Below, one piece after another: positions 53,821 to 63,226 of a DNA stretch of 64,000 bases. Made by a program: the position numbers and the translations under genes. The DNA is from an uncultured Alphaproteobacteria bacterium (GTDB lineage: Bacteria; Pseudomonadota; Alphaproteobacteria; Rhizobiales; Beijerinckiaceae). The stretch spans positions 64,539-128,538 of the forward strand of contig CAWKBT010000001.1 of NCBI GenBank assembly GCA_963847915.1, given 5' to 3'. The first letter of the stretch is position 1; each line of letters starts with the position of its first letter. The notes below the pieces were generated by a model. The model was not told the DNA's origin, ran no database searches, and saw only the letters and a program-made list of their open reading frames with translations.

Positions 53821-54663
53821 ATGAACCGCTCGCGCTCCTCCCCGCTTCGGCCGCGGCCTCGTCCACCTGGCGCTGCTCGCCTATACGGCCCTGTGCCTCG
53901 CGCCCGTGCTGCTCGTCGTGGTCAATTCGTTCAAGAGCCGCGCGAGCCATCTTCGCGGCGCCGCTGACCCTGCCGGACGCGTCGAGCTTCGACCTCATCG
54001 GCTACCGGACGGTGCTGGGGCAGGGCGTGTTCCTGAACTATTTCGTCAACAGCCTCATCGTCACCATCGGCTCCATCGCGGCGGTGCTGCTGTTCGGCGC
54101 CATGGCGGCCTTCGCGCTCAGCGAATACCGGTTCAGGCTCAACACCGCGCTCGGCCTCTTCCTCGCCCTCGGCATCATGGTGCCGATCCGGCTCGGCACG
54201 GTCGTCGATCCTGCAGATGATGGTGGCGACCCACCTCGTCGACACGCATCTCGCCCTGATCCTCATCTACACGGCGCAGGGCCTGCCGGTGGCGGTGTTC
54301 ATCCTGTCGGAGTTCATGCAGGGCGTGTCCAAGGACCTGAAGGACGCCGGGCGCATCGACGGGCTCGGCGAATACACGATCTTCTTCCGGCTGGTGCTGC
54401 CGCTGGTGCGCCCGGCCCTCGCCACCGTGGCGGTCTTCACCATGGTGCCGATCTGGAACGACCTGTGGTTCCCGCTGATCGTGGCGCCCGGCGAGGCGAC
54501 CCGGACCGTGACGCTCGGCGCGCAGAGCTTCATCGGCCAGTTCGTCACCAACTGGAACGCCGTGCTGGCGGCCCTCACCCTCGCGATCCTGCCCGTGCTG
54601 GTCCTCTACCTCGCCTTCTCGCGCCAGCTGATCCGCGGCATCACCGCCGGAGCCGTCAAATGA
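53821..54663 (+). pseudogene. carbohydrate ABC transporter permease, about 3 frame switches as given
   Basis: MNRSRSS / [29 protein letters not shown] / [33 protein letters not shown]...IRLGTVV / [25 protein letters not shown]...[21 protein letters not shown]...TAGAVK. Confidence 0.75.
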
Positions 54664-55713
54664 ACCCGATCCGTACCCTCGTCGTCGGCCTCGGCCAGAT
54701 GGGTCGCTGCGCACGCCCTGGCCTATGCGGCCGACCCGGCCTTCGCCATCGTCGGCCTCGTCAACCGCTCGCCCGTCGACCTGCCCGAAGCGCTCGCCGG
54801 GTTCCCGCGGCTCGACAGCGTTCGCCGAAGGCCTGGCCCTGCGGCCCGACCTCGTCTGCATCGCCTCCTATACGGACAGCCACGCCGATTACGCCGTCGC
54901 CGCCATGGAGGCCGGCGCCCATGTCTTCGTCGAGAAGCCGCTGGCCGCCACGGTCGAGGATGCCGAACGCGTCGTCGCGGTGGCCGCGCGCGACGGGACG
55001 CAAGCTCGTCGTCGGCTACATCCTGCGCCACCACCCGAGCTGGATCCGCTTCATCGCCGAGGCGCGCGAGGTCGGGCCGCCCTTCGTGATGCGCATGAAC
55101 CTCAACCAGCAATCCTCCGGCGCCGCGTGGGAGATCCACCGCCGGCTGATGGAGAGCACCAGCCCGGTGGTGGATTGCGGCGTGCACTACCTCGACGTCA
55201 TGCTGCAGATCACCGATGCCCGCCCCGTGCAGGTGCGCGGCATGGGGGTGCGGCTTCAGCGACGAGATCGCGCCCGGCCAGGTGAACTACGGCCACCTGC
55301 AGGTCATCTTCGCCGACGGGTCCGTCGGCTGGTACGAGGCCGGCTGGGGGCCGATGATCTCCGAAACGGCCTTCTTCGTGAAGGACGTCATGGGTCCGCG
55401 CGGCGCCGTGTCGATCGTCATGGACGAGGGGGCCGCCTCGGCCGACGTCGAGACCCATACGAAGACGTCGCGCATCCGCATCCACCGCGCCGAGACGGGC
55501 CCGGGCGGCGCCTTCCTGGCGCCCGACGCCATGATCTCCATGGCGGACGAGCCCGGCCACGACGCGCTCTGCGCCCGCGAGCAGGCCTTCATGCGCGACG
55601 CGATCCTCGAGGACCGCGACCTCGGCCGCCACATGGACGACGCCGTGCGCTCGCTCGCCGTGGTCCTGGCGGCCGACCGTTCCATGCGCGAAAACCGCGC
55701 GATCGACCTGTGA
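54660..55713 (+). pseudogene. Gfo/Idh/MocA-family oxidoreductase, four +1 frame switches as given
   Basis: [16 protein letters not shown] / [37 protein letters not shown] / [42 protein letters not shown]...ARDG / [17 protein letters not shown]...[11 protein letters not shown]...VRGMG / [30 protein letters not shown]...RAIDL. The length is 3n+1. Confidence 0.75.
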
Positions 55714-55724
55714 GGACCGACGGC

Positions 55725-56727
<1,003 letters not shown>

Positions 56728-57401
56728 GACGGGCTCCGGCGCCCGCGTCGGAGCGGGCCGTGGTGCGGATCGGCACATGCGGTCTGGTCGCAGTCCAAGG
56801 TCTGCCTGGAAACGACACGGGGCCGACCGGAAACGTGGGCGGACCGGAAGGTGGGCGTCAATCGCTGTCCGGCCGGTCGGCTCGCATTCGTCGCTCCGGC
56901 TTGAAAACCGTCAGCAGTGGAGGCGGCACACAGAATGAAGCTGCGCCGCCACGCTCGGCATCGAACAGGCGACCTCGTCGATGTCCGTGGTCCGTCGTCG
57001 ACCACGAGACGTCCAACGGCTCCCAGCGCCTCGATACCACCGTGAACCGTGGAAGGACCCCGGCCCAACGTGCGCGCCAGGGGCCCCAGACCGGACGCTG
57101 GAGCTTTGCGGAGATGCGAGGGCAGTTCGCGGCGCCTTGGCGTCACGATACTGGCGTATACGTCGTACGCTAGGAAGACCACCTCGTAGAGCGGCTCGAA
57201 AGTTTCTGAGCGCTCGGCGGCTTGCCAAGCCTGCGCGCCTTCCGACGAGGTTGCACGCAGACAGCGTCAGGTTTCAATCTGGACCATGTTCCGATCTCCA
57301 TCGTTCCACCGCTTCGGCGAAGTCGTCGATCGACGCGTCGACGCTGGTGAACGTGTAGGCAGTCTTATGTAGCTGCCTCACCAACCCGTAAAATCAGGCA
57401 C

Positions 57402-58052
57402 TTAGGCTAAGGCATCGGGATGGGGCGACTCCGTGCCAGAGAACCCCGATTTGAGACGGCAGCCAGTGTGCGCTTGTACGTGTTCAAAGTGCGCGCGCTG
57501 TCCGGTTGTCCCTTCCTTGTGGGTTTTCACCGGCCCATGACAGGCAGGACAACGCATCGTCTCGCCGCGCCGCGATAGCGCATCGGTGATGCTGATCCGC
57601 TCCCATCCAGCCGCCATCCTGATCTCGCACGAGTCGAGGTCAGCCTCGATCTCGTCCAACTCGTCGATGCGTTCAACAATGTCGGCCTCGGTATCGGTGA
57701 AGCCTTTCCGCCGCTGGTCGTCGACATGGCACTCGTGATGGACGAGGCGGGTATTCTCGGCCGTGTAGCCTTTCCACGCGACGAAGCGGTCAAGCTCCGA
57801 ACCCTTCTGCGGCATGTTTTTATCGCACATGGCGCAGATGCCGCCCTGCGCCTTCCACTTCTCCGCCTTGAGCTTTGTCCGGTGGGCCGGCGTCCCGCGC
57901 TCAAGGTGCATGAGGCGGGTGTAAAGCCGGCGCCGAAGGGCGAACAGCAGCTCGGGGTCTTCGCCGGCCAGTTTGGCGAGGGCATCGACTGTCTGGGCCT
58001 GCAAGCTGTTGAGGCTGGCGATCTCGGACGGGGTGAGTCGGCGGTTCGGCAT
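57402..58052 (-). CDS. HNH-like (His-Me finger) protein with a C-terminal CoiA-type zinc ribbon
   Basis: 216 aa. GGICAMCDKNMPQKGSELDRFVAWKGYTAENTRLVHHECH has the CxxC...N...HxxCH layout of HNH nucleases. RCPACHGPVKTHKEGTTGQRAHFEHVQAHTGC has the CPxC...HFxH...C layout seen at CoiA-like N-termini. Confidence 0.6.
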   Translation of the reverse strand: MPNRRLTPSEIASLNSLQAQTVDALAKLAGEDPELLFALRRRLYTRLMHLERGTPAHRTKLKAEKWKAQGGICAMCDKNMPQKGSELDRFVAWKGYTAENTRLVHHECHVDDQRRKGFTDTEADIVERIDELDEIEADLDSCEIRMAAGWERISITDALSRRGETMRCPACHGPVKTHKEGTTGQRAHFEHVQAHTGCRLKSGFSGTESPHPDALA

Positions 58053-58138
58053 GAGCGGAGGCTAGCACGGTCGGGGGCAGCTGTTGCGTCTGCTACGTAA
58101 GCCCGGAGAAGCGGATCACTGCGCGGTCTGTGCGCTGG

Positions 58139-58167
58139 TTGACAAAACCGTTTGATTTTCGTATTTG
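58139..58167 (+). promoter_or_regulatory. candidate sigma70-type promoter for the 58200 gene pair
   Basis: TTGACA (58139-58144), a 17-nt spacer, then TATTTG (58162-58167), about 30 nt upstream of the ATG at 58200. Pattern match only. Confidence 0.3.
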
Positions 58168-58190
58168 GTTGCCTAGCGTCGTCGGCAACC
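58167..58190. promoter_or_regulatory. 7-bp perfect inverted repeat (candidate operator)
   Basis: GGTTGCC (58167-58173), 10 nt, then GGCAACC (58184-58190), lying between the candidate -10 element and the start codon. It is flanked by AACCGTTTG / AACCGGTTTG direct repeats (58146-58154, 58187-58196). Confidence 0.3.
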
Positions 58191-58199
58191 GGTTTGGCC

Positions 58200-58847
58200 A
58201 TGGATACCGTCTCAGCAGAGAGTTTCCTTCTCGATCAACTGCCGCTCGCGGCGCGGTCGGTGATCCCGGCGACACTGAAGACGGCCTATGCGGCTGTTAA
58301 GCTTATGGTCGATCAAGAGCCCATCCTGCAGGTTGCCTCTGCCGTTGACGGACGCGGAAGGCTCATCAGCTGGGCGGTTGACCATGCCTTTGAGAAGGCG
58401 ATCCTCACGCGGCAATGGCCATTCGAGTACGAGTGGAAGGATTGGGCGCATCCGACGGGGCGATATCTAGCTATTCGACTCCCGCACTCGATACTAAGCA
58501 TCAGTCAGATCGCTAATTCGAAGAAACAGCCGAGAAACGTTGTTTTTCGTGAGAACGCAAGGCTTAACAATGCTCCATGCTTCGACTTTGAACAGTTTGT
58601 TGAGGAGCGAAAAGTAAAAGGCCTCCCTCATTTTTTAATGATCCATGGATATCAAAATCTGAATTTCGCTCACTTGGCAGTGCCTCACGCCGTCCATGGC
58701 CAGGGATGGATTCATAAATCACCTAATCTGATGAAAATGCCCCACGCTGTTGCTCAGGATGTACCGGCGGTGGAATCCACAGAATTTGAAGAGACCATGG
58801 TGCTCAAGGGTGAAATCGAAAAATGGCGCAGAGACAATGGCGCCTAA
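58200..58847 (+). CDS. hypothetical protein (215 aa), upstream partner of the XRE-ImmA gene
   Basis: ATG 58200 (MDTVSAESFLLDQLPLAARS...). Unbiased, AT-richer coding sequence. The 3' end overlaps the next gene by 11 nt. I recognise no motif. Confidence 0.6.
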   Translation: MDTVSAESFLLDQLPLAARSVIPATLKTAYAAVKLMVDQEPILQVASAVDGRGRLISWAVDHAFEKAILTRQWPFEYEWKDWAHPTGRYLAIRLPHSILSISQIANSKKQPRNVVFRENARLNNAPCFDFEQFVEERKVKGLPHFLMIHGYQNLNFAHLAVPHAVHGQGWIHKSPNLMKMPHAVAQDVPAVESTEFEETMVLKGEIEKWRRDNGA

Positions 58848-60000
58848 CGTCCTCACGTTTCCAAGCAAGTTTCCGCATCGCGGTCTCGTGCCCGCGCGGT
58901 TGAAGGATGCACGCATAGCGGCAAGCCTCAATCAGACGGAGCTGGCGACAGCGGTCGATGTGAGCCGCCAAGCGATATCGGCTTTCGAGGCGGGCGAGAA
59001 AAATCCTGAGCCCGCTACGATGCAAAGGATTGCTGACGTCCTCAATCAACCTATCTCGTTCTTCTCGTCTCAGGATGCAGACACGTTCGGCGAGTTCGGG
59101 ACGCGCTATTTCCGCGCCTTCGGGGCAGACACGAAGCGTCGCAACCTTATGTCCGACGTTCTGAGCAAGTGGTTCGTACAGGTCGCACGATACCTTTTCG
59201 ATCTAGTGAGCTTTCCAGACTCCAATTTGCCGAACGCCTCCCCTAAGGACGGCAATCGGTACGCCGATGAGGAAATTGAGGAGATAGCCGAGGAATGTCG
59301 GCGGAGATGGGGGCTGGGTACAGGTCCAATTTCCAACGTCATCGGGCTGCTAGAGAACAATGGCGTTGTCGTTTGTCGATATGAGATGACCGGCCAAAAG
59401 GTTGAAGCCTTTTCGTTCTGGAACGGACCTCGTCCTTTTGTTTTCCTTTCTTCGGAAAAGCAGTCTGCAGTAAGGGCACGCTTTGATGCTGCGCACGAGC
59501 TAGGCCACCTCGTCCTACATAGGTGGTTAGGTTCGGAAGAAATTGAGGATCCGAAAGCCTTGAAGCTGATTGAGGCGGAAGCAAACAGATTTGCAGGTGC
59601 CTTGTTGCTTCCGCGCGTGTCATTTCCGAACGAAATATATTCACCGAGGTTGGACGCTTTTGTTGACCTAAAACGTCGATGGAAAGTCGCTATATCGGCT
59701 ATGGTTTATAGGTGTAAGAATCTGGGAATTTTCGACGAGGTTCAGGTCACAAATCTGTATAAGCAAATCTCGTTTCGCAAATGGCGTACAAGCGAGCCAC
59801 TTGACGATCAGATTAAGTTTGAAGAGCCGAAACTGCTTCGGAAGGCTGTCGAAATCATCGTTCATTCGGAGCGCAAAATGCGGGACGAGATTGCCTCGGA
59901 CCTTCGAATTTCGCGGCGGTTCATAGCGGCGTTTTGCGGCTTGCCGCCAGAATATTTCGAGCAGCGCAGCGGTGCCGAATTTGTCCCGATACTCAAATGA
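58837..60000 (+). CDS. XRE-family HTH fused to an ImmA/IrrE-type (COG2856, M78) zinc metallopeptidase
   Basis: ATG 58837 (MAPNVLTF...). The HTH is LNQTELATAVDVSRQAISAFEAGEKNP. The HEXXH site is RFDAAHELGHLVLH, followed by EAEANRFAGALLLP. Confidence 0.85.
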   Translation: MAPNVLTFPSKFPHRGLVPARLKDARIAASLNQTELATAVDVSRQAISAFEAGEKNPEPATMQRIADVLNQPISFFSSQDADTFGEFGTRYFRAFGADTKRRNLMSDVLSKWFVQVARYLFDLVSFPDSNLPNASPKDGNRYADEEIEEIAEECRRRWGLGTGPISNVIGLLENNGVVVCRYEMTGQKVEAFSFWNGPRPFVFLSSEKQSAVRARFDAAHELGHLVLHRWLGSEEIEDPKALKLIEAEANRFAGALLLPRVSFPNEIYSPRLDAFVDLKRRWKVAISAMVYRCKNLGIFDEVQVTNLYKQISFRKWRTSEPLDDQIKFEEPKLLRKAVEIIVHSERKMRDEIASDLRISRRFIAAFCGLPPEYFEQRSGAEFVPILK

Positions 60001-60002
60001 AA

Positions 60003-60032
60003 ACGGCTCAGAGGCGTGAACCTCTGAGCCGT
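60003..60032. terminator. 12-bp perfect stem-loop between convergent genes (possible bidirectional terminator)
   Basis: ACGGCTCAGAGG (60003-60014), loop CGTGAA, then CCTCTGAGCCGT (60021-60032). On the minus strand it is followed by TTTTCATTT. On the plus strand there is no T-tract. Confidence 0.5.
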
Positions 60033-60113
60033 CTGTGGGGGCAGCAAGCGCAGGGCGGGACCGTCCAAGCCATTCCCTACGGGTGCAACTCCCGTTGCCT
60101 CCAGCCTACCATT

Positions 60114-60365
60114 TCAGCCCGCAGCGGGTCTACCGCTGGGCTTCGGTCCGGTGACCCCCAATGTCGTTTCGCCTTGAACGAACGCGATCCCTTGCCCTTC
60201 TAGGGCAGCTCGCATTGCCCCTAGATTATTCGAGATCGGAACCCGTCGTCCCTTCTCGAAATCCCGAACGGTCGACAGAGACACGTTCGCGGCGGCGGCA
60301 AGCTCTGCCTGCCCCCAGTCCAACCATCCACGCGCAGCGCGGCTCTGTTCCGGCGTTATCGTCAT
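60114..60365 (-). CDS. XRE-family HTH transcriptional regulator (small)
   Basis: MTITPEQSRAARGWLDWGQAELAAAANVSLSTVRDFEKGRRVP is a standard Cro/C1-type HTH. ATG 60365 has no obvious SD, and the upstream TTG at 60428 is an alternative start. Confidence 0.75.
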   Translation of the reverse strand: MTITPEQSRAARGWLDWGQAELAAAANVSLSTVRDFEKGRRVPISNNLGAMRAALEGQGIAFVQGETTLGVTGPKPSGRPAAG

Positions 60366-60409
60366 GGGGAGGTGATACGAAAGAGCGGCGCCCACGTCAA
60401 CGATTTCTG

Positions 60410-60438
60410 TTGACACCAACGTTTTCAATGCTTATCAC
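60410..60438 (+). promoter_or_regulatory. candidate sigma70-type promoter upstream of the transposase gene
   Basis: TTGACA (60410-60415), a 17-nt spacer, then TATCAC (60433-60438). It is followed by an imperfect palindrome, CTGAGGTCAACG-GAAAA-CGTTGGACCTCAG (60438-60467). Confidence 0.3.
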
Positions 60439-60470
60439 TGAGGTCAACGGAAAACGTTGGACCTCAGCCC

Positions 60471-61424
60471 TTGTCGCAGCACTTCCTTCTCTCCAAAGCC
60501 GCAAGGAGCCTGAGCCTCGCTCGGGTTGCCCGGCTTTCGGATGAGGAAGCGCATGACGCCTTCCGGCTGATCCGCTGGACGGAGACGAAGGGCGAGGCGG
60601 TTTGTCCCCGCTGCGCTTGCGCCGCCACCTACACCTACAAGGCCCGTAAGCTCTGGAAGTGCAAGGCGTGCTCGCATCAGTTCAGCGTCACGAGCGGGAC
60701 GATTTTCGCTAGCCGTAAGATGCCGATCCGCGACATCCTGCTCGCCATCGCGATCTTCGTGAACGGCGCCAAGGGCCATAGCGCCCTGCAGCTCTCCCGC
60801 GATCTGGATTGCCAGTACAAGACGGCCTTCGTCCTCGCCCACAAGATCCGCGAGGCCATCACGGCCGACGCCGACGAGCGTACCCTGTCGGGCGACGTGG
60901 AAGTCGACGGCGCCTATTTCGGCGGCTACGTGAAGCCGGCCAATGAGAAAGAGAACCGCGTCGATCGCCGCAAGGCCGAAAACCAGACCGGCAAGCGCAA
61001 GGTCGTCGTCGTGATGCGCGAGCGTGGCGGCGAGACGCTGCCCTTCGTGTTCCGTTCCGAGGCCGCGTCGGTTTCGACGATCGGCGCTAAGGTGGCGCTC
61101 GGCTCCACGATCTATGCCGACGAAGCGGCCTCCTGGGATCGCCTGCATGATCGCTTCCTGACGAAGCGCATCAATCATCAGGAGGCCTACTCGACGGCCG
61201 AGGCCTGCACCAACGGCGCCGAGTCATTCTTCTCCCGCATCCGCCGGGCCGAGATCGGCATCCATCACCATATCGCCGGCCCCTACCTCCAGGCCTACAG
61301 CCAGGAGATGGCGCGGCGCGAGGATCACCGCCGCGTGTCGAACGGCGAGCAGTACCTTATGATGACGGAAGCGGCGCTCCGTCATCCGGTGTCACGGGTG
61401 TGGAAGGGGTACTGGCAGAGGTGA
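60471..61424 (+). mobile_element. IS1595-family transposase gene (element ends not defined)
   Basis: TTG start. An N-terminal zinc ribbon (CPRCACAATYTYKARKLWKCKACSHQFSVTSGTIF) and an ISXO2-like DDE domain (VEVDGAYFGGY...VVVVMRERGG...IYADEAASWD...INHQE). Confidence 0.85.
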
Positions 61425-61446
61425 GTTGACCACCAAACTGGTTATC

Positions 61447-61839
61447 TCAGGCCACTTCGCGCAGAGGATGAGGATCTACCAACTCGCGGAGATATCGCTC
61501 CGAACCTGCTAGGCTTCTTTGATGCAGGCCCTGTCCCACTAATCGTTTATCGGTGTCAGACATCGTTTCAAGATGTGTTTCAACACTGCGCCGTAGGGCG
61601 TCCATCTCAGCCGCATGCGCTTCGAAACTAGCTGCATATGCCTTAGCAACTAGCTCTCGAAAAGCTGCCTCTCGCATCATGGCTTGCTGCATGTAGTGCC
61701 GCGCTCGCCGCTTAGCACGAAGCCCCAAAGCGATGTCCCTCAACATTGCACCAATAGCGCCAGTCACGGTCGCAGTGGCTAGAATGGCGACAGCAGGGGC
61801 ACCGACATCGTGCAAAACCTGACCGACAAACGAAATCAT
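61447..61839 (-). CDS. hypothetical protein with an N-terminal membrane anchor and a helical tail
   Basis: ATG 61839 is preceded by GAGG and lies 7 nt after the upstream stop. The sequence is MISFVGQVLHDVGAPAVAILATATVTGAIGAML, then a charged helical region. Confidence 0.45.
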   Translation of the reverse strand: MISFVGQVLHDVGAPAVAILATATVTGAIGAMLRDIALGLRAKRRARHYMQQAMMREAAFRELVAKAYAASFEAHAAEMDALRRSVETHLETMSDTDKRLVGQGLHQRSLAGSERYLRELVDPHPLREVA

Positions 61840-61846
61840 GTTCGCC

Positions 61847-62305
61847 TCAGGGTTGATGCTTCTTGCGAAAAAGCAATCCATCGGGAAAGGGACGTGCGAG
61901 CATTACGTGCCATATAAACCGCTCGATAGCATGCACCAATCCCACGGCGATGAGCAAGGTTCCACTCCAATGTTCAACGCTGATCGGCGAAGCTGAGCCA
62001 GCGCTTCCCCCGAGCAGGAGCCCGGCTAGGAACAGCAGCACGTGAGCGCACAACGTAAGAGGGTGCTCAGCCGTGAAAATGAACCCAGATGCCATCACCG
62101 CCGCTGTCAGAGTGATGTTTTCTGGTTCCATCTTGCTTTTGTGAAGGTATTCCACGGCGAGAGGAAGGCATGGCAAAACCAACGTGGCAATAAGACTTAA
62201 AGCCCACACCCCAAGGTTGTTAAGTGCTGATTTTCCGATCTCGTAAATTGCGACCGATGCGCGTCTGCAAAATGCGCCCGTTGCGACCATGGATGGAACG
62301 GGCAC
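61847..62305 (-). CDS. hypothetical integral membrane protein (about 4 spans)
   Basis: 152-aa ORF in AT-richer DNA, hydrophobic throughout (GVWALSLIATLVLPCLPLAV, LTAAVMASGFIF, HVLLFLAGLLLGG, TLLIAVGLVHAI). Confidence 0.5.
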   Translation of the reverse strand: MPVPSMVATGAFCRRASVAIYEIGKSALNNLGVWALSLIATLVLPCLPLAVEYLHKSKMEPENITLTAAVMASGFIFTAEHPLTLCAHVLLFLAGLLLGGSAGSASPISVEHWSGTLLIAVGLVHAIERFIWHVMLARPFPDGLLFRKKHQP

Positions 62306-62374
62306 AGATTGGACATTCCGCCAGAGGAGAATGCGACAGCATTATAACATTCGCTGCTTGTGGCAAGCGAATGG

Positions 62375-62830
62375 TCACTGCCTAGCCGATACCTTCCTGT
62401 CGGTAATGGTGGCCCACACCCTCACCCCGCCCCGAATCCCCTCCGACCCAATCCCACCACGCTTCCACTGCAGCGTGAGCGCTTGCACGATGCGGTACGC
62501 CAGGGCCTTCCTGAGGACCGGATCAGCCGCGTCGAGGCCCTTGGCCTCGGCAACGCGCCTTGCGAGCTCCCGCGTGTCCTGAGGGCCGTGAGAAGCCAGC
62601 GCAGCCTTGCACAGCCCTGACAGCTCGCCGCGTCGGAACAGCCGGCTCGTGTCCATGTAGGCGCGAACCTCGCTGAGCTCAGCCTCTCCGACCGCGAACA
62701 GGGTCAGGGTGGCGTTTACATGTGTCAGATCCCGGCGGCACTGGTCAGCCTTGCCTTCGTAGGCCTTGAGAGCGGCTTCGATCTCGCTGCGCTTCGCCTC
62801 AAGCGTGTGGATGATTTGGGAATCGGCCAT
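62375..62830 (-). CDS. hypothetical cytoplasmic protein (151 aa)
   Basis: MADSQIIHTLEAKRSEIEAALKAYEGKADQCRRDLTHVNATLTLF... has ordinary composition. It is the first gene of a same-strand trio. Confidence 0.55.
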   Translation of the reverse strand: MADSQIIHTLEAKRSEIEAALKAYEGKADQCRRDLTHVNATLTLFAVGEAELSEVRAYMDTSRLFRRGELSGLCKAALASHGPQDTRELARRVAEAKGLDAADPVLRKALAYRIVQALTLQWKRGGIGSEGIRGGVRVWATITDRKVSARQ

Positions 62831-63226
62831 GGCCCGCCTTGATGGGGTGCTGGCCTGCCCCGGCAGCTTGCGGAGAGCCGAGTCGTAACCAAAACCGCGA
62901 ACGGGGACAGTCCAAGGCTCTCACCAGCTCTGGCAGCTTACCGAGACGATCGCCGTTCGGGGAGGGGCGGCTTGGTGAGTTTGCTACCTAACACTGCGTG
63001 TAGGCGGCTTCGGTGTCGCCGATGTGCAGGTATTCGCCCTGTCCTCGCTCACTGTCGAAGCCCACGACGCGCAGACCAGCCCCGATATAGGCGAGCCGGT
63101 CCTTGAACCGGTTCGTGCTTGGAATCGATCGCCGGCGAGCCGTCGGCCGCCCCCGTCGAGCCCACGACGGAGGTGAGGCCCGCCGCTGCGCCCAGGGACG
63201 CGCGCGGCCGGAGAGCCTGCCCGCGC

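What the first reader, a model, noticed from the sequence alone, without database searches (positions are those of the whole stretch)
58200..60000. Overlapping gene pair: unknown 215-aa protein plus an XRE-HTH/ImmA-IrrE peptidase fusion, a candidate new toxin-antitoxin or defence switch
Seen in the sequence: the two ORFs overlap by 11 nt (58837-58847), which suggests translational coupling. They share the lowest-GC DNA in the window and sit behind a candidate promoter and operator. The second protein combines a Cro/C1 HTH with an intact HEXXH (HELGH) COG2856/M78 peptidase domain. Established knowledge: ImmA/IrrE-type peptidases control HTH repressors in ICEs, phages and Deinococcus. Xre-COG2856 modules have also been predicted by comparative genomics to partner with diverse toxins. 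Inference: the unrecognisable upstream 215-aa protein is the effector or toxin in a reverse-order (toxin-first) module.
Basis: partly seen in the sequence, partly recalled or inferred. Interest (0 to 1): 0.65.

Follow-up and report, generated by a model that had tools for sequence, protein, structure and literature searches.

The report
RosmerTA toxin-antitoxin phage-defence gene pair
The overlapping gene pair is real, but it belongs to the already described RosmerTA toxin-antitoxin anti-phage defence family and sits on a small horizontally acquired island; what remains unknown is how its toxin, from an untested subfamily, works.

Summary
ORF A (58200-58847, 215 aa) and ORF B (58837-60000, 387 aa) overlap by 11 nt in the lowest-GC DNA of the window (0.51-0.55 against 0.70).

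ORF B is an XRE-HTH / M78 peptidase fusion with an invariant HEXXH motif. Pfam and NCBIfam do not recognise ORF A. PADLOC-DB does: ORF A matches RmrT (PDLC03938, E 1e-92, full length) and ORF B matches RmrA (PDLC03952, E 1e-175). The pair is therefore RosmerTA (Millman et al. 2022).

ORF B is 35% identical over 341 aa to the verified E. coli OLC-716 RmrA. ORF A is not detectably related to the verified RmrT.

- **Co-occurrence:** all 45 related genome loci have rmrA immediately downstream of rmrT, nearly always overlapping.
- **Selection:** dN/dS is about 0.02 for both genes.
- **Regulation:** a conserved promoter (TTGACA, 17 nt, TATTTG) abuts a conserved palindrome, GGTTGC-N12-GCAACC. This is a probable RmrA operator.
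- **Toxin:** RmrT is soluble, with no significant fold match and no conserved acidic residues. Its mechanism is unknown.

It is a new member of a known kind. Interest is modest.

The parts
58139..58144 (+). -35 box, TTGACA (within the invariant GGTTGACAAA)
   Evidence: Invariant in 18 aligned upstream regions and present in 41 of 41 related loci, 51-81 nt before the rmrT start. The generic sigma-70 scan missed it because the -10 box is weak.
58162..58167 (+). Candidate -10 box, TATTTG, 17 nt after the -35 box
   Evidence: Read from the sequence. The aligned position is TAT-rich in most loci. This is inferred; it was not mapped.
58167..58190 (.). Inverted repeat GGTTGC-N12-GCAACC, the probable operator for the RmrA HTH. 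It abuts the -10 box and covers the predicted transcription start.
   Evidence: One match in the window against 0.01 expected. It sits at the same offset (+28 from the start of TTGACA) in 17 of 41 loci strictly and 27 of 41 relaxed, with a variable spacer, and occurs nowhere else in 454 kb.
58200..58847 (+). rmrT, the 215-aa putative toxin. It is soluble, with no Pfam or NCBIfam family.
   Evidence: PADLOC RmrT PDLC03938, E 1e-92, residues 4-214 of 215. 324 homologues. dN/dS 0.024. No transmembrane segment, maximum KD19 0.99.
58837..58847 (+). 11-nt overlap, ATGGCGCCTAA (rmrA start inside the end of rmrT), consistent with translational coupling
   Evidence: Overlaps of 8-20 nt, all in the same relative frame, are kept in 41 of 45 loci.
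58837..60000 (+). rmrA, the 387-aa antitoxin/regulator: XRE HTH (22-75), helical linker, M78 ImmA/IrrE Zn-peptidase (173-294, HELGH 220-224, E248) and a helical C-terminal region
   Evidence: PADLOC RmrA PDLC03952, E 1e-175. Pfam. 35% identity over 341 aa, E 7e-46, to the verified E. coli OLC-716 RmrA. AF2 pLDDT 89.7, with CapP 7t5t as the best PDB fold match.
60003..60032 (.). 12-bp GC-rich hairpin between the convergent rmrA (+) and the XRE gene (-). It is a probable terminator and marks the right edge of the conserved cassette.
   Evidence: dG -26.4 kcal/mol, z -5.0. The - strand terminator scan hits it. Nucleotide homology to L001 ends at 60002; the more distant L002, L003 and L040 lose it inside rmrA, at 59808-59962.

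Best explanation
This is a RosmerTA (RmrT/RmrA) two-gene toxin-antitoxin anti-phage defence cassette, carried on a low-GC, IS-associated island in a high-GC alphaproteobacterium. The proposed working model has four steps. (1) Supported by comparative sequence only: the operon is transcribed from a conserved TTGACA-N17-TATTTG promoter, and an RmrA dimer binds the GGTTGC-N12-GCAACC palindrome at the -10 box and transcription start through its XRE HTH, autorepressing the operon. (2) Inferred from sequence: rmrA is translationally coupled to rmrT through the conserved overlap, so toxin is never made without antitoxin. (3) Shown for other Rosmer systems, inferred here: RmrA keeps RmrT harmless, and this neutralisation probably needs the host ClpXP protease. 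(4) Inferred: phage infection disturbs RmrA or ClpXP control. The intact HEXXH peptidase is the likely switch, by analogy with ImmA and CapP. Free RmrT then arrests or kills the cell and aborts the infection. RmrT is a soluble 24-kDa alpha/beta protein of unknown activity. Its conserved P-R...F-R-x-N...H-G residues and the absence of conserved acidic residues point to a cytoplasmic target or a metal-independent enzyme rather than a membrane pore.
For: Full-length PADLOC hits: RmrT E 1e-92 and RmrA E 1e-175. RmrA is 35% identical over 341 aa to the verified E. coli OLC-716 RmrA, and that verified system has the same toxin-first order. All 45 loci keep rmrA directly after rmrT, with a conserved overlap. 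dN/dS is about 0.02 for both genes. The peptidase ligands are invariant. The promoter and palindrome are conserved at a fixed offset and occur nowhere else. The cassette boundaries are sharp (58137-60002) and its contexts differ between genomes. It occurs on plasmids and in 3 viral contigs. Literature: Rosmer defends against phage and an rmrA deletion could not be transformed. RmrA-type antitoxins pair with diverse toxins, 58% toxin-first. rmrA is essential in Tn-seq, and ClpX or ClpP is essential only where Rosmer is present.
Against: Nothing has been tested for this RmrT subfamily. It is not homologous to the verified E. coli RmrT (hhalign probability 0.1%; they hit different PADLOC models). 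Its toxicity and defence role therefore rest on guilt by association and on its inclusion in the Rosmer HMM set. The strict operator palindrome is present in only 17 of 41 loci (27 of 41 relaxed). The -10 box is weak, and the generic promoter scan found nothing. No expression data were found. The RmrT fold gave no significant match.
Confidence: 0.8

Rival explanations
1. The pair is mainly an addiction (post-segregational killing) module that stabilises the island, plasmid or IS-linked cassette, with no significant anti-phage role.
For: Homologous pairs lie on plasmids of Hoeflea, Zymomonas mobilis and Roseomonas mucosa. In the four closest contexts the cassette travels with an IS1595 transposase. 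No other PADLOC defence gene is adjacent in the window.
Against: Two Rosmer systems with unrelated toxins did protect against phage when tested. The two roles are not exclusive.
Confidence: 0.12
2. The pair is an ImmR/ImmA-like regulatory switch of a mobile element. The fused HTH-peptidase controls element genes, and the 215-aa protein is a co-regulator, sensor or substrate rather than a toxin.
For: The HTH plus M78 combination is the ImmR/ImmA, CapH/CapP and DdrO/IrrE logic. There is a conserved operator, and an IS and a second XRE gene lie next door.
Against: No integrase, excisionase, conjugation or phage genes are nearby. Across 45 loci only the two genes are conserved and the flanks differ. 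The only conserved operator sits in the pair's own promoter.
Confidence: 0.05
3. RmrT is the phage sensor or an adaptor, and the lethal activity is RmrA's peptidase released onto host proteins.
For: The peptidase site is invariant. The most conserved RmrT motif lies in a segment that AlphaFold cannot place, as expected of a binding or cleavage segment.
Against: In every studied Rosmer system the upstream gene is the toxic one and rmrA is the essential, protective one.
Confidence: 0.03

Closest known systems
RosmerTA (RmrT/RmrA), verified system of E. coli OLC-716 (Millman et al. 2022, bioRxiv 10.1101/2022.05.11.491447)
   Same: A two-gene operon with the toxin first. RmrA has the same full-length architecture (HTH, linker, M78 HEXXH, C-terminal region) and is 35% identical over 341 aa, E 7e-46. 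Both proteins hit PADLOC Rosmer models.
   Different: The toxins are unrelated in sequence (hhalign probability 0.1%). The window's toxin hits PDLC03938/03933/03940; the E. coli toxin hits PDLC03935/03932. The host is an alphaproteobacterium. Nothing has been tested here.
RipAB (Spr1630/Spr1629) of Streptococcus pneumoniae, a Rosmer-family TA (bioRxiv 10.1101/2025.09.02.673660)
   Same: The toxin gene lies upstream of an essential XRE-HTH/ImmA-like antitoxin. NCBIfam antitox_spr1629 matches ORF B over residues 21-376, E 4e-60.
   Different: The score of 204 bits is below the equivalog cut-off of 335, so ORF B is not an orthologue. RipA targets the DnaN sliding clamp. No NCBIfam toxin model matches ORF A, and its target is unknown.
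Gordonia phage Kita RmrTA (NetFlax D5/D25; PMC10440598)
   Same: An ImmA-type RmrA antitoxin with a toxin of unknown family. Anti-phage defence was shown for that system.
   Different: The Kita toxin is a membrane-depolarising protein with a transmembrane region, and the order there is antitoxin first. The window's RmrT has no hydrophobic segment and comes first.
CapH/CapP regulators of CBASS, ImmR/ImmA of ICEBs1, and DdrO/IrrE of Deinococcus
   Same: An XRE HTH repressor combined with an M78 metallopeptidase. CapP (7t5t) is the best solved-structure match to the peptidase domain.
   Different: In those systems the HTH and the peptidase are separate proteins, and they regulate a neighbouring CBASS operon, ICE or regulon. 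Here the two are fused and the only conserved partner is rmrT.

Membership tests
RosmerTA | RmrA: an antitoxin with an M78 (ImmA/IrrE) Zn-peptidase domain and an intact HEXXH, usually with an N-terminal XRE HTH | tested here: met
   Pfam HTH_3 plus Peptidase_M78. PADLOC RmrA PDLC03952, E 1e-175, residues 3-386. H220, E221, H224 and E248 invariant. 35% identity, E 7e-46, to the verified RmrA.
RosmerTA | RmrT: an adjacent protein that matches one of the RmrT models | tested here: met
   PADLOC RmrT PDLC03938, E 1e-92, full length, plus PDLC03933 and PDLC03940. However, it is not homologous to the experimentally verified RmrT.
RosmerTA | The two genes are adjacent on one strand as an operon, and the pairing is conserved | tested here: met
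   11-nt overlap. 45 of 45 loci have rmrA directly downstream. The overlap is kept in 41 of 45.
RosmerTA | RmrT is toxic and RmrA neutralises it | not testable with these tools
   Shown only for other Rosmer systems.
RosmerTA | The pair protects against phage infection | not testable with these tools
   Shown for the E. coli OLC-716 and Gordonia phage Kita systems. No data for this toxin subfamily.
ImmR/ImmA-type mobile-element switch | Separate repressor and anti-repressor protease genes next to integrase, excision or transfer genes of an ICE or prophage | tested here: not met
   The HTH and peptidase are fused in one ORF. No integrase, ICE or phage genes are in the flanks, and the flanks are not conserved across loci.
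CapH/CapP (CBASS regulation) | A separate CapH HTH and CapP protease adjacent to a CD-NTase/effector operon | tested here: not met
   There are only domain-level hits to capP (E 7e-20) and capH (E 2e-7), far below the RmrA hits. No CBASS genes are among the neighbours.
PD-(D/E)xK nuclease (considered for RmrT) | A significant fold match and a conserved acidic/lysine catalytic motif | tested here: not met
   The best Foldseek E-values are 0.2 (PDB) and 0.047 (BFVD), with TM-scores of 0.29 or less. No acidic residue is conserved across the superfamily; only P111, R112, R117, N124, H149, G150 and P162 are.

The most novel reading that the evidence does not exclude
The alphaproteobacterial RmrT subfamily may be a toxin with a previously undescribed fold and activity, for example a metal-independent enzyme acting on a cytoplasmic target. 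Its invariant but structurally unplaceable loop (QPRNVxFRxNxRLNN, residues 110-124) would be the segment that the RmrA peptidase recognises or cleaves, coupling toxin control to ClpXP. The GGTTGC-N12-GCAACC operator would be the first defined DNA site for a Rosmer antitoxin.
Probability: 0.2. Interest if true: 0.6.

Novelty: new member of a known kind. Interest (0 to 1): 0.3.

Why it matters
As an annotation, this replaces 'hypothetical protein + XRE family regulator' with a named defence system. Public records annotate homologues that way. It also marks window 57-63 kb as horizontally acquired DNA.

Scientifically, how Rosmer senses phage and how its toxins act is still largely open. This subfamily offers three things:

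- a soluble, well-conserved toxin with about 274 clusters at 50% identity;
- a sharply defined promoter and operator;
- a confident RmrA model.

These make RmrA-DNA binding, the role of the peptidase and the toxin's target directly testable. None of this is surprising to a specialist.

Tried and rejected
- **Family scans of ORF A:** Pfam, NCBIfam and PHROGs gave nothing. Only PADLOC recognised it.
- **Solved structures for RmrT:** a PDB sequence profile search gave nothing.
- **RmrT fold search:** the AF2 model (pLDDT 76) searched with Foldseek against PDB and BFVD gave no significant match. Weak, recurring PD-(D/E)xK and endonuclease-like hits were rejected as evidence because TM-scores were 0.29 or less and no acidic residues are conserved.
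- **Exhaustive profile search of 1.84 billion representatives:** it found only single-domain proteins of about 215 aa, with no informative fusions.
- **Profile comparison with the verified E. coli RmrT:** no homology.
- **Generic sigma-70 scan:** no promoter found. The promoter was found by phylogenetic footprinting instead.
- **tRNA and Rfam scans of 50-64 kb:** nothing, so no tRNA-linked integration site.
- **Terminal inverted repeats enclosing the cassette and the IS1595 element:** none convincing.
- **Neighbours as system components:** the upstream 216-aa HNH/Zn-ribbon-like ORF, the downstream XRE-104 gene and the IS1595 transposase were considered. They are absent from all but the closest loci.
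- **Sequencing runs:** the search returned DNA or unclassified runs and none labelled RNA, so there is no expression evidence.
- **Millman Table S11:** it was truncated in storage, so I could not check whether these genomes are listed there.

Full report
**Observation**

The window is about 70% GC, but 57-63 kb drops to 51-63%. The minimum is at 58-60 kb: 0.553 and 0.512.

Two + strand ORFs lie there:
- ORF A, ATG 58200 to TAA 58847, 215 aa.
- ORF B, ATG 58837 to TGA 60000, 387 aa.
- They share ATGGCGCCTAA, 11 nt.

ORF B carries HTH_3 (residues 22-75) and Peptidase_M78 (173-294), with HELGH at 220-224.

**Identity**

Pfam, NCBIfam and PHROGs have nothing for ORF A. PADLOC-DB does:
- ORF A matches RmrT model PDLC03938 over its full length, E 1e-92. 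It also hits two weaker RmrT models.
- ORF B matches RmrA model PDLC03952 over residues 3-386, E 1e-175. It also hits 13 other RmrA models.

RmrT/RmrA is RosmerTA. Millman et al. [quoted passage not shown]

That paper's supplement gives the verified E. coli OLC-716 proteins.
- ORF B is 35% identical to that RmrA over 341 aa, E 7e-46, spanning the HTH, linker, peptidase and C-terminal region.
- ORF A is not detectably related to that RmrT (hhalign probability 0.1%). The two toxins hit different PADLOC RmrT models.

This fits the published picture of one conserved ImmA-type antitoxin hub paired with many unrelated toxins, 58% of them toxin-first.

**Evidence that the pair is a functional, conserved unit**

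- ORF A has 324 homologues in the 5.8-billion-protein set, nearly all about 215 aa and named 'hypothetical'. It has 274 clusters at 50% identity in the exhaustive search, all single-domain.
- A scan of one genome per species found 45 loci. They are almost all Alphaproteobacteria, with one Salinicola and one Rhodanobacteraceae.
- In all 45 loci an RmrA homologue (45-98% identity) lies immediately downstream on the same strand.
- In 41 of 45 loci the rmrA ATG lies 8-20 nt inside the end of rmrT, always in the same relative frame. Translational coupling is therefore a family trait. The conserved C-terminal W-R-R/K-D-N/H-G of RmrT partly reflects this dual coding.
- Against the closest relative (L001, a Lichenihabitans MAG) the DNA is 90.6% identical while the proteins are 98% identical. 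dN/dS is 0.024 for RmrT and 0.022 for RmrA, at dS of about 0.5.
- RmrA keeps H220, E221, H224, H228, E246 and E248 invariant.

**Promoter and operator**

Nucleotide homology to L001, L002, L003 and L040 begins abruptly at 58137, 63 nt before the rmrT start. It ends at 60002 in the closest relative L001 and fades inside rmrA (59808-59962) in the more distant three.

Aligning upstream regions from loci whose RmrT is only 45-98% identical shows three features:
- an invariant GGTTGACAAA (the -35 box, 58139-58144);
- a T/A-rich hexamer 17 nt later (TATTTG, 58162-58167);
- an inverted repeat, GGTTGC-N12-GCAACC (58167-58190), with a non-conserved spacer.

TTGACA is present in 41 of 41 loci. The palindrome starts exactly 28 nt after the start of TTGACA in 17 of 41 loci (27 of 41 if one change per half-site is allowed). 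It occurs nowhere else in 454 kb of locus DNA. In the window it occurs once, against 0.01 expected.

Conserved half-site sequence with a free spacer is the signature of a dimeric HTH operator. Its position over the -10 box and transcription start implies autorepression by RmrA. This is inferred, not shown. A 12-bp hairpin at 60003-60032 (dG -26.4, z -5) closes the cassette.

**Structures**

RmrA models confidently (pLDDT 89.7, pTM 0.88). The best solved-structure match for the peptidase domain is CapP of CBASS (7t5t). The HTH resembles 434 Cro, C-proteins, CapH and DdrO.

RmrT models moderately (pLDDT 76, pTM 0.68). Its layout is:
- an N-terminal helical bundle (6-69);
- three strands (76-104);
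- an unplaced segment (105-143);
- three more strands (144-173);
- a C-terminal helix (196-212).

It has no hydrophobic segment (maximum KD19 0.99) and a pI of 7.2. This distinguishes it from the membrane-depolarising Kita phage RmrT.

Foldseek finds nothing significant in PDB or BFVD. The weak hits recur among PD-(D/E)xK and endonuclease-like folds. However, across 53 diverse family members only P111, R112, R117, N124, H149, G150 and P162 are at least 90% conserved, and no acidic residue is. I therefore do not call it a nuclease.

The most conserved motif, QPRNVxFRxNxRLNN, lies in the segment AlphaFold cannot place. That would fit a partner-binding or peptidase-recognition loop. This is speculation.

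**Mechanism from the literature**

- A Rosmer-type module makes clpP essential in E. coli E101.
- S. pneumoniae RipAB is a Rosmer TA whose toxin hits the DnaN clamp and whose antitoxin needs ClpX.
- In Pectobacteriaceae, rmrA is essential, and clpX is essential only in strains that carry Rosmer.
- The Kita phage system defends E. coli against some BASEL phages.

The best-supported model is therefore an autorepressed, translationally coupled operon. RmrA, probably together with ClpXP, keeps RmrT inactive, and infection releases RmrT and aborts the infection. How the HEXXH site contributes is unknown for any Rosmer system I could find.

**Context**

The cassette sits in a roughly 6-kb low-GC island with these neighbours:
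- a divergent 216-aa Zn-ribbon/HNH-like ORF (57402-58052, -);
- a convergent 104-aa XRE gene (60114-60428, -);
- an IS1595 transposase (60471-61424, +);
- three small unknown ORFs.

There is no tRNA or Rfam hit in 50-64 kb.

The three closest relatives (L001, L003, L049) also carry XRE-104 and a transposase that is 86-96% identical after rmrA. Where their upstream flanks could be read they differ from the window's: KaiBC plus a histidine kinase in L001 and ruvCA in L049, against an ABC transporter in the window. The other 40 or so loci lack these neighbours, so they are not part of the system, though the IS may mobilise it.

Homologous pairs also lie on plasmids of Hoeflea, Zymomonas mobilis and Roseomonas mucosa, annotated only as 'hypothetical protein' and 'XRE family transcriptional regulator'. 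They also occur in three IMG/VR contigs.

**Verdict**

It is a new, untested member whose toxin subfamily is uncharacterised. Interest is modest.

Noticed in passing
window 60114-61424; L001 10663-12090; L003 2828-4123; L049 9918-11222: In the window and its three closest relatives, the Rosmer cassette is followed by the same convergent 104-aa XRE gene (PADLOC 'Control_protein', E 5e-11) and an IS1595-family transposase (86-96% aa identity). The upstream flanks of L001 and L049 are unrelated to the window's. This suggests co-mobilisation with the IS. The IS ends were not mapped.
   Followed up: partly
window 57402-58052 (-): A 216-aa ORF divergent from rmrT. It has an HHECH-type motif and a C-terminal CxxC...H/C Zn-ribbon. 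Hits are sub-threshold only: DUF7830, DUF7828, CoiA_N and the retron-associated HNH family TIGR02646. It is absent from all other Rosmer loci.
   Followed up: partly
window 57000-63000: A low-GC island of about 6 kb (0.51-0.63 against about 0.71) within high-GC chromosome. There is no tRNA, integrase or Rfam hit. It includes three small - strand ORFs (61447-61881, 61847-62305, 62375-62830) with no curated family match. One hits phrog_22626. The 151-aa ORF has 36-38% identical homologues in L003 and L049.
   Followed up: partly
window 57362-57404 and L001 5133-5175: A 43-nt stretch, 91% identical between the window and the Lichenihabitans MAG. In both it lies about 730-760 nt upstream of the Rosmer cassette, with unrelated DNA in between. 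It could be an element end or a shared terminator.
   Followed up: no
window 60417-60460: An inverted repeat, CCAACGTTTTC ... GAAAACGTTGG, with a TTGACA just upstream, in the gap between the XRE-104 gene and the IS1595 transposase gene. It could be an operator or the left end of the IS.
   Followed up: no
L001 7868-10181: The Lichenihabitans MAG has an extra 2.9 kb inserted between rmrA and the XRE/IS1595 block. It holds a second, divergent IS1595 transposase, an unknown 275-aa ORF and a PIN-domain protein, possibly another TA module.
   Followed up: partly
window 54012-56730: The high-GC flank just upstream of the island appears to encode sugar ABC-transporter components and an oxidoreductase, judged by eye from the ORF translations (for example a Walker [10 protein letters not shown] motif). 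This is ordinary core-genome context. The long 888-aa 'ORF' in the list is a high-GC artefact that spans several frames.
   Followed up: no
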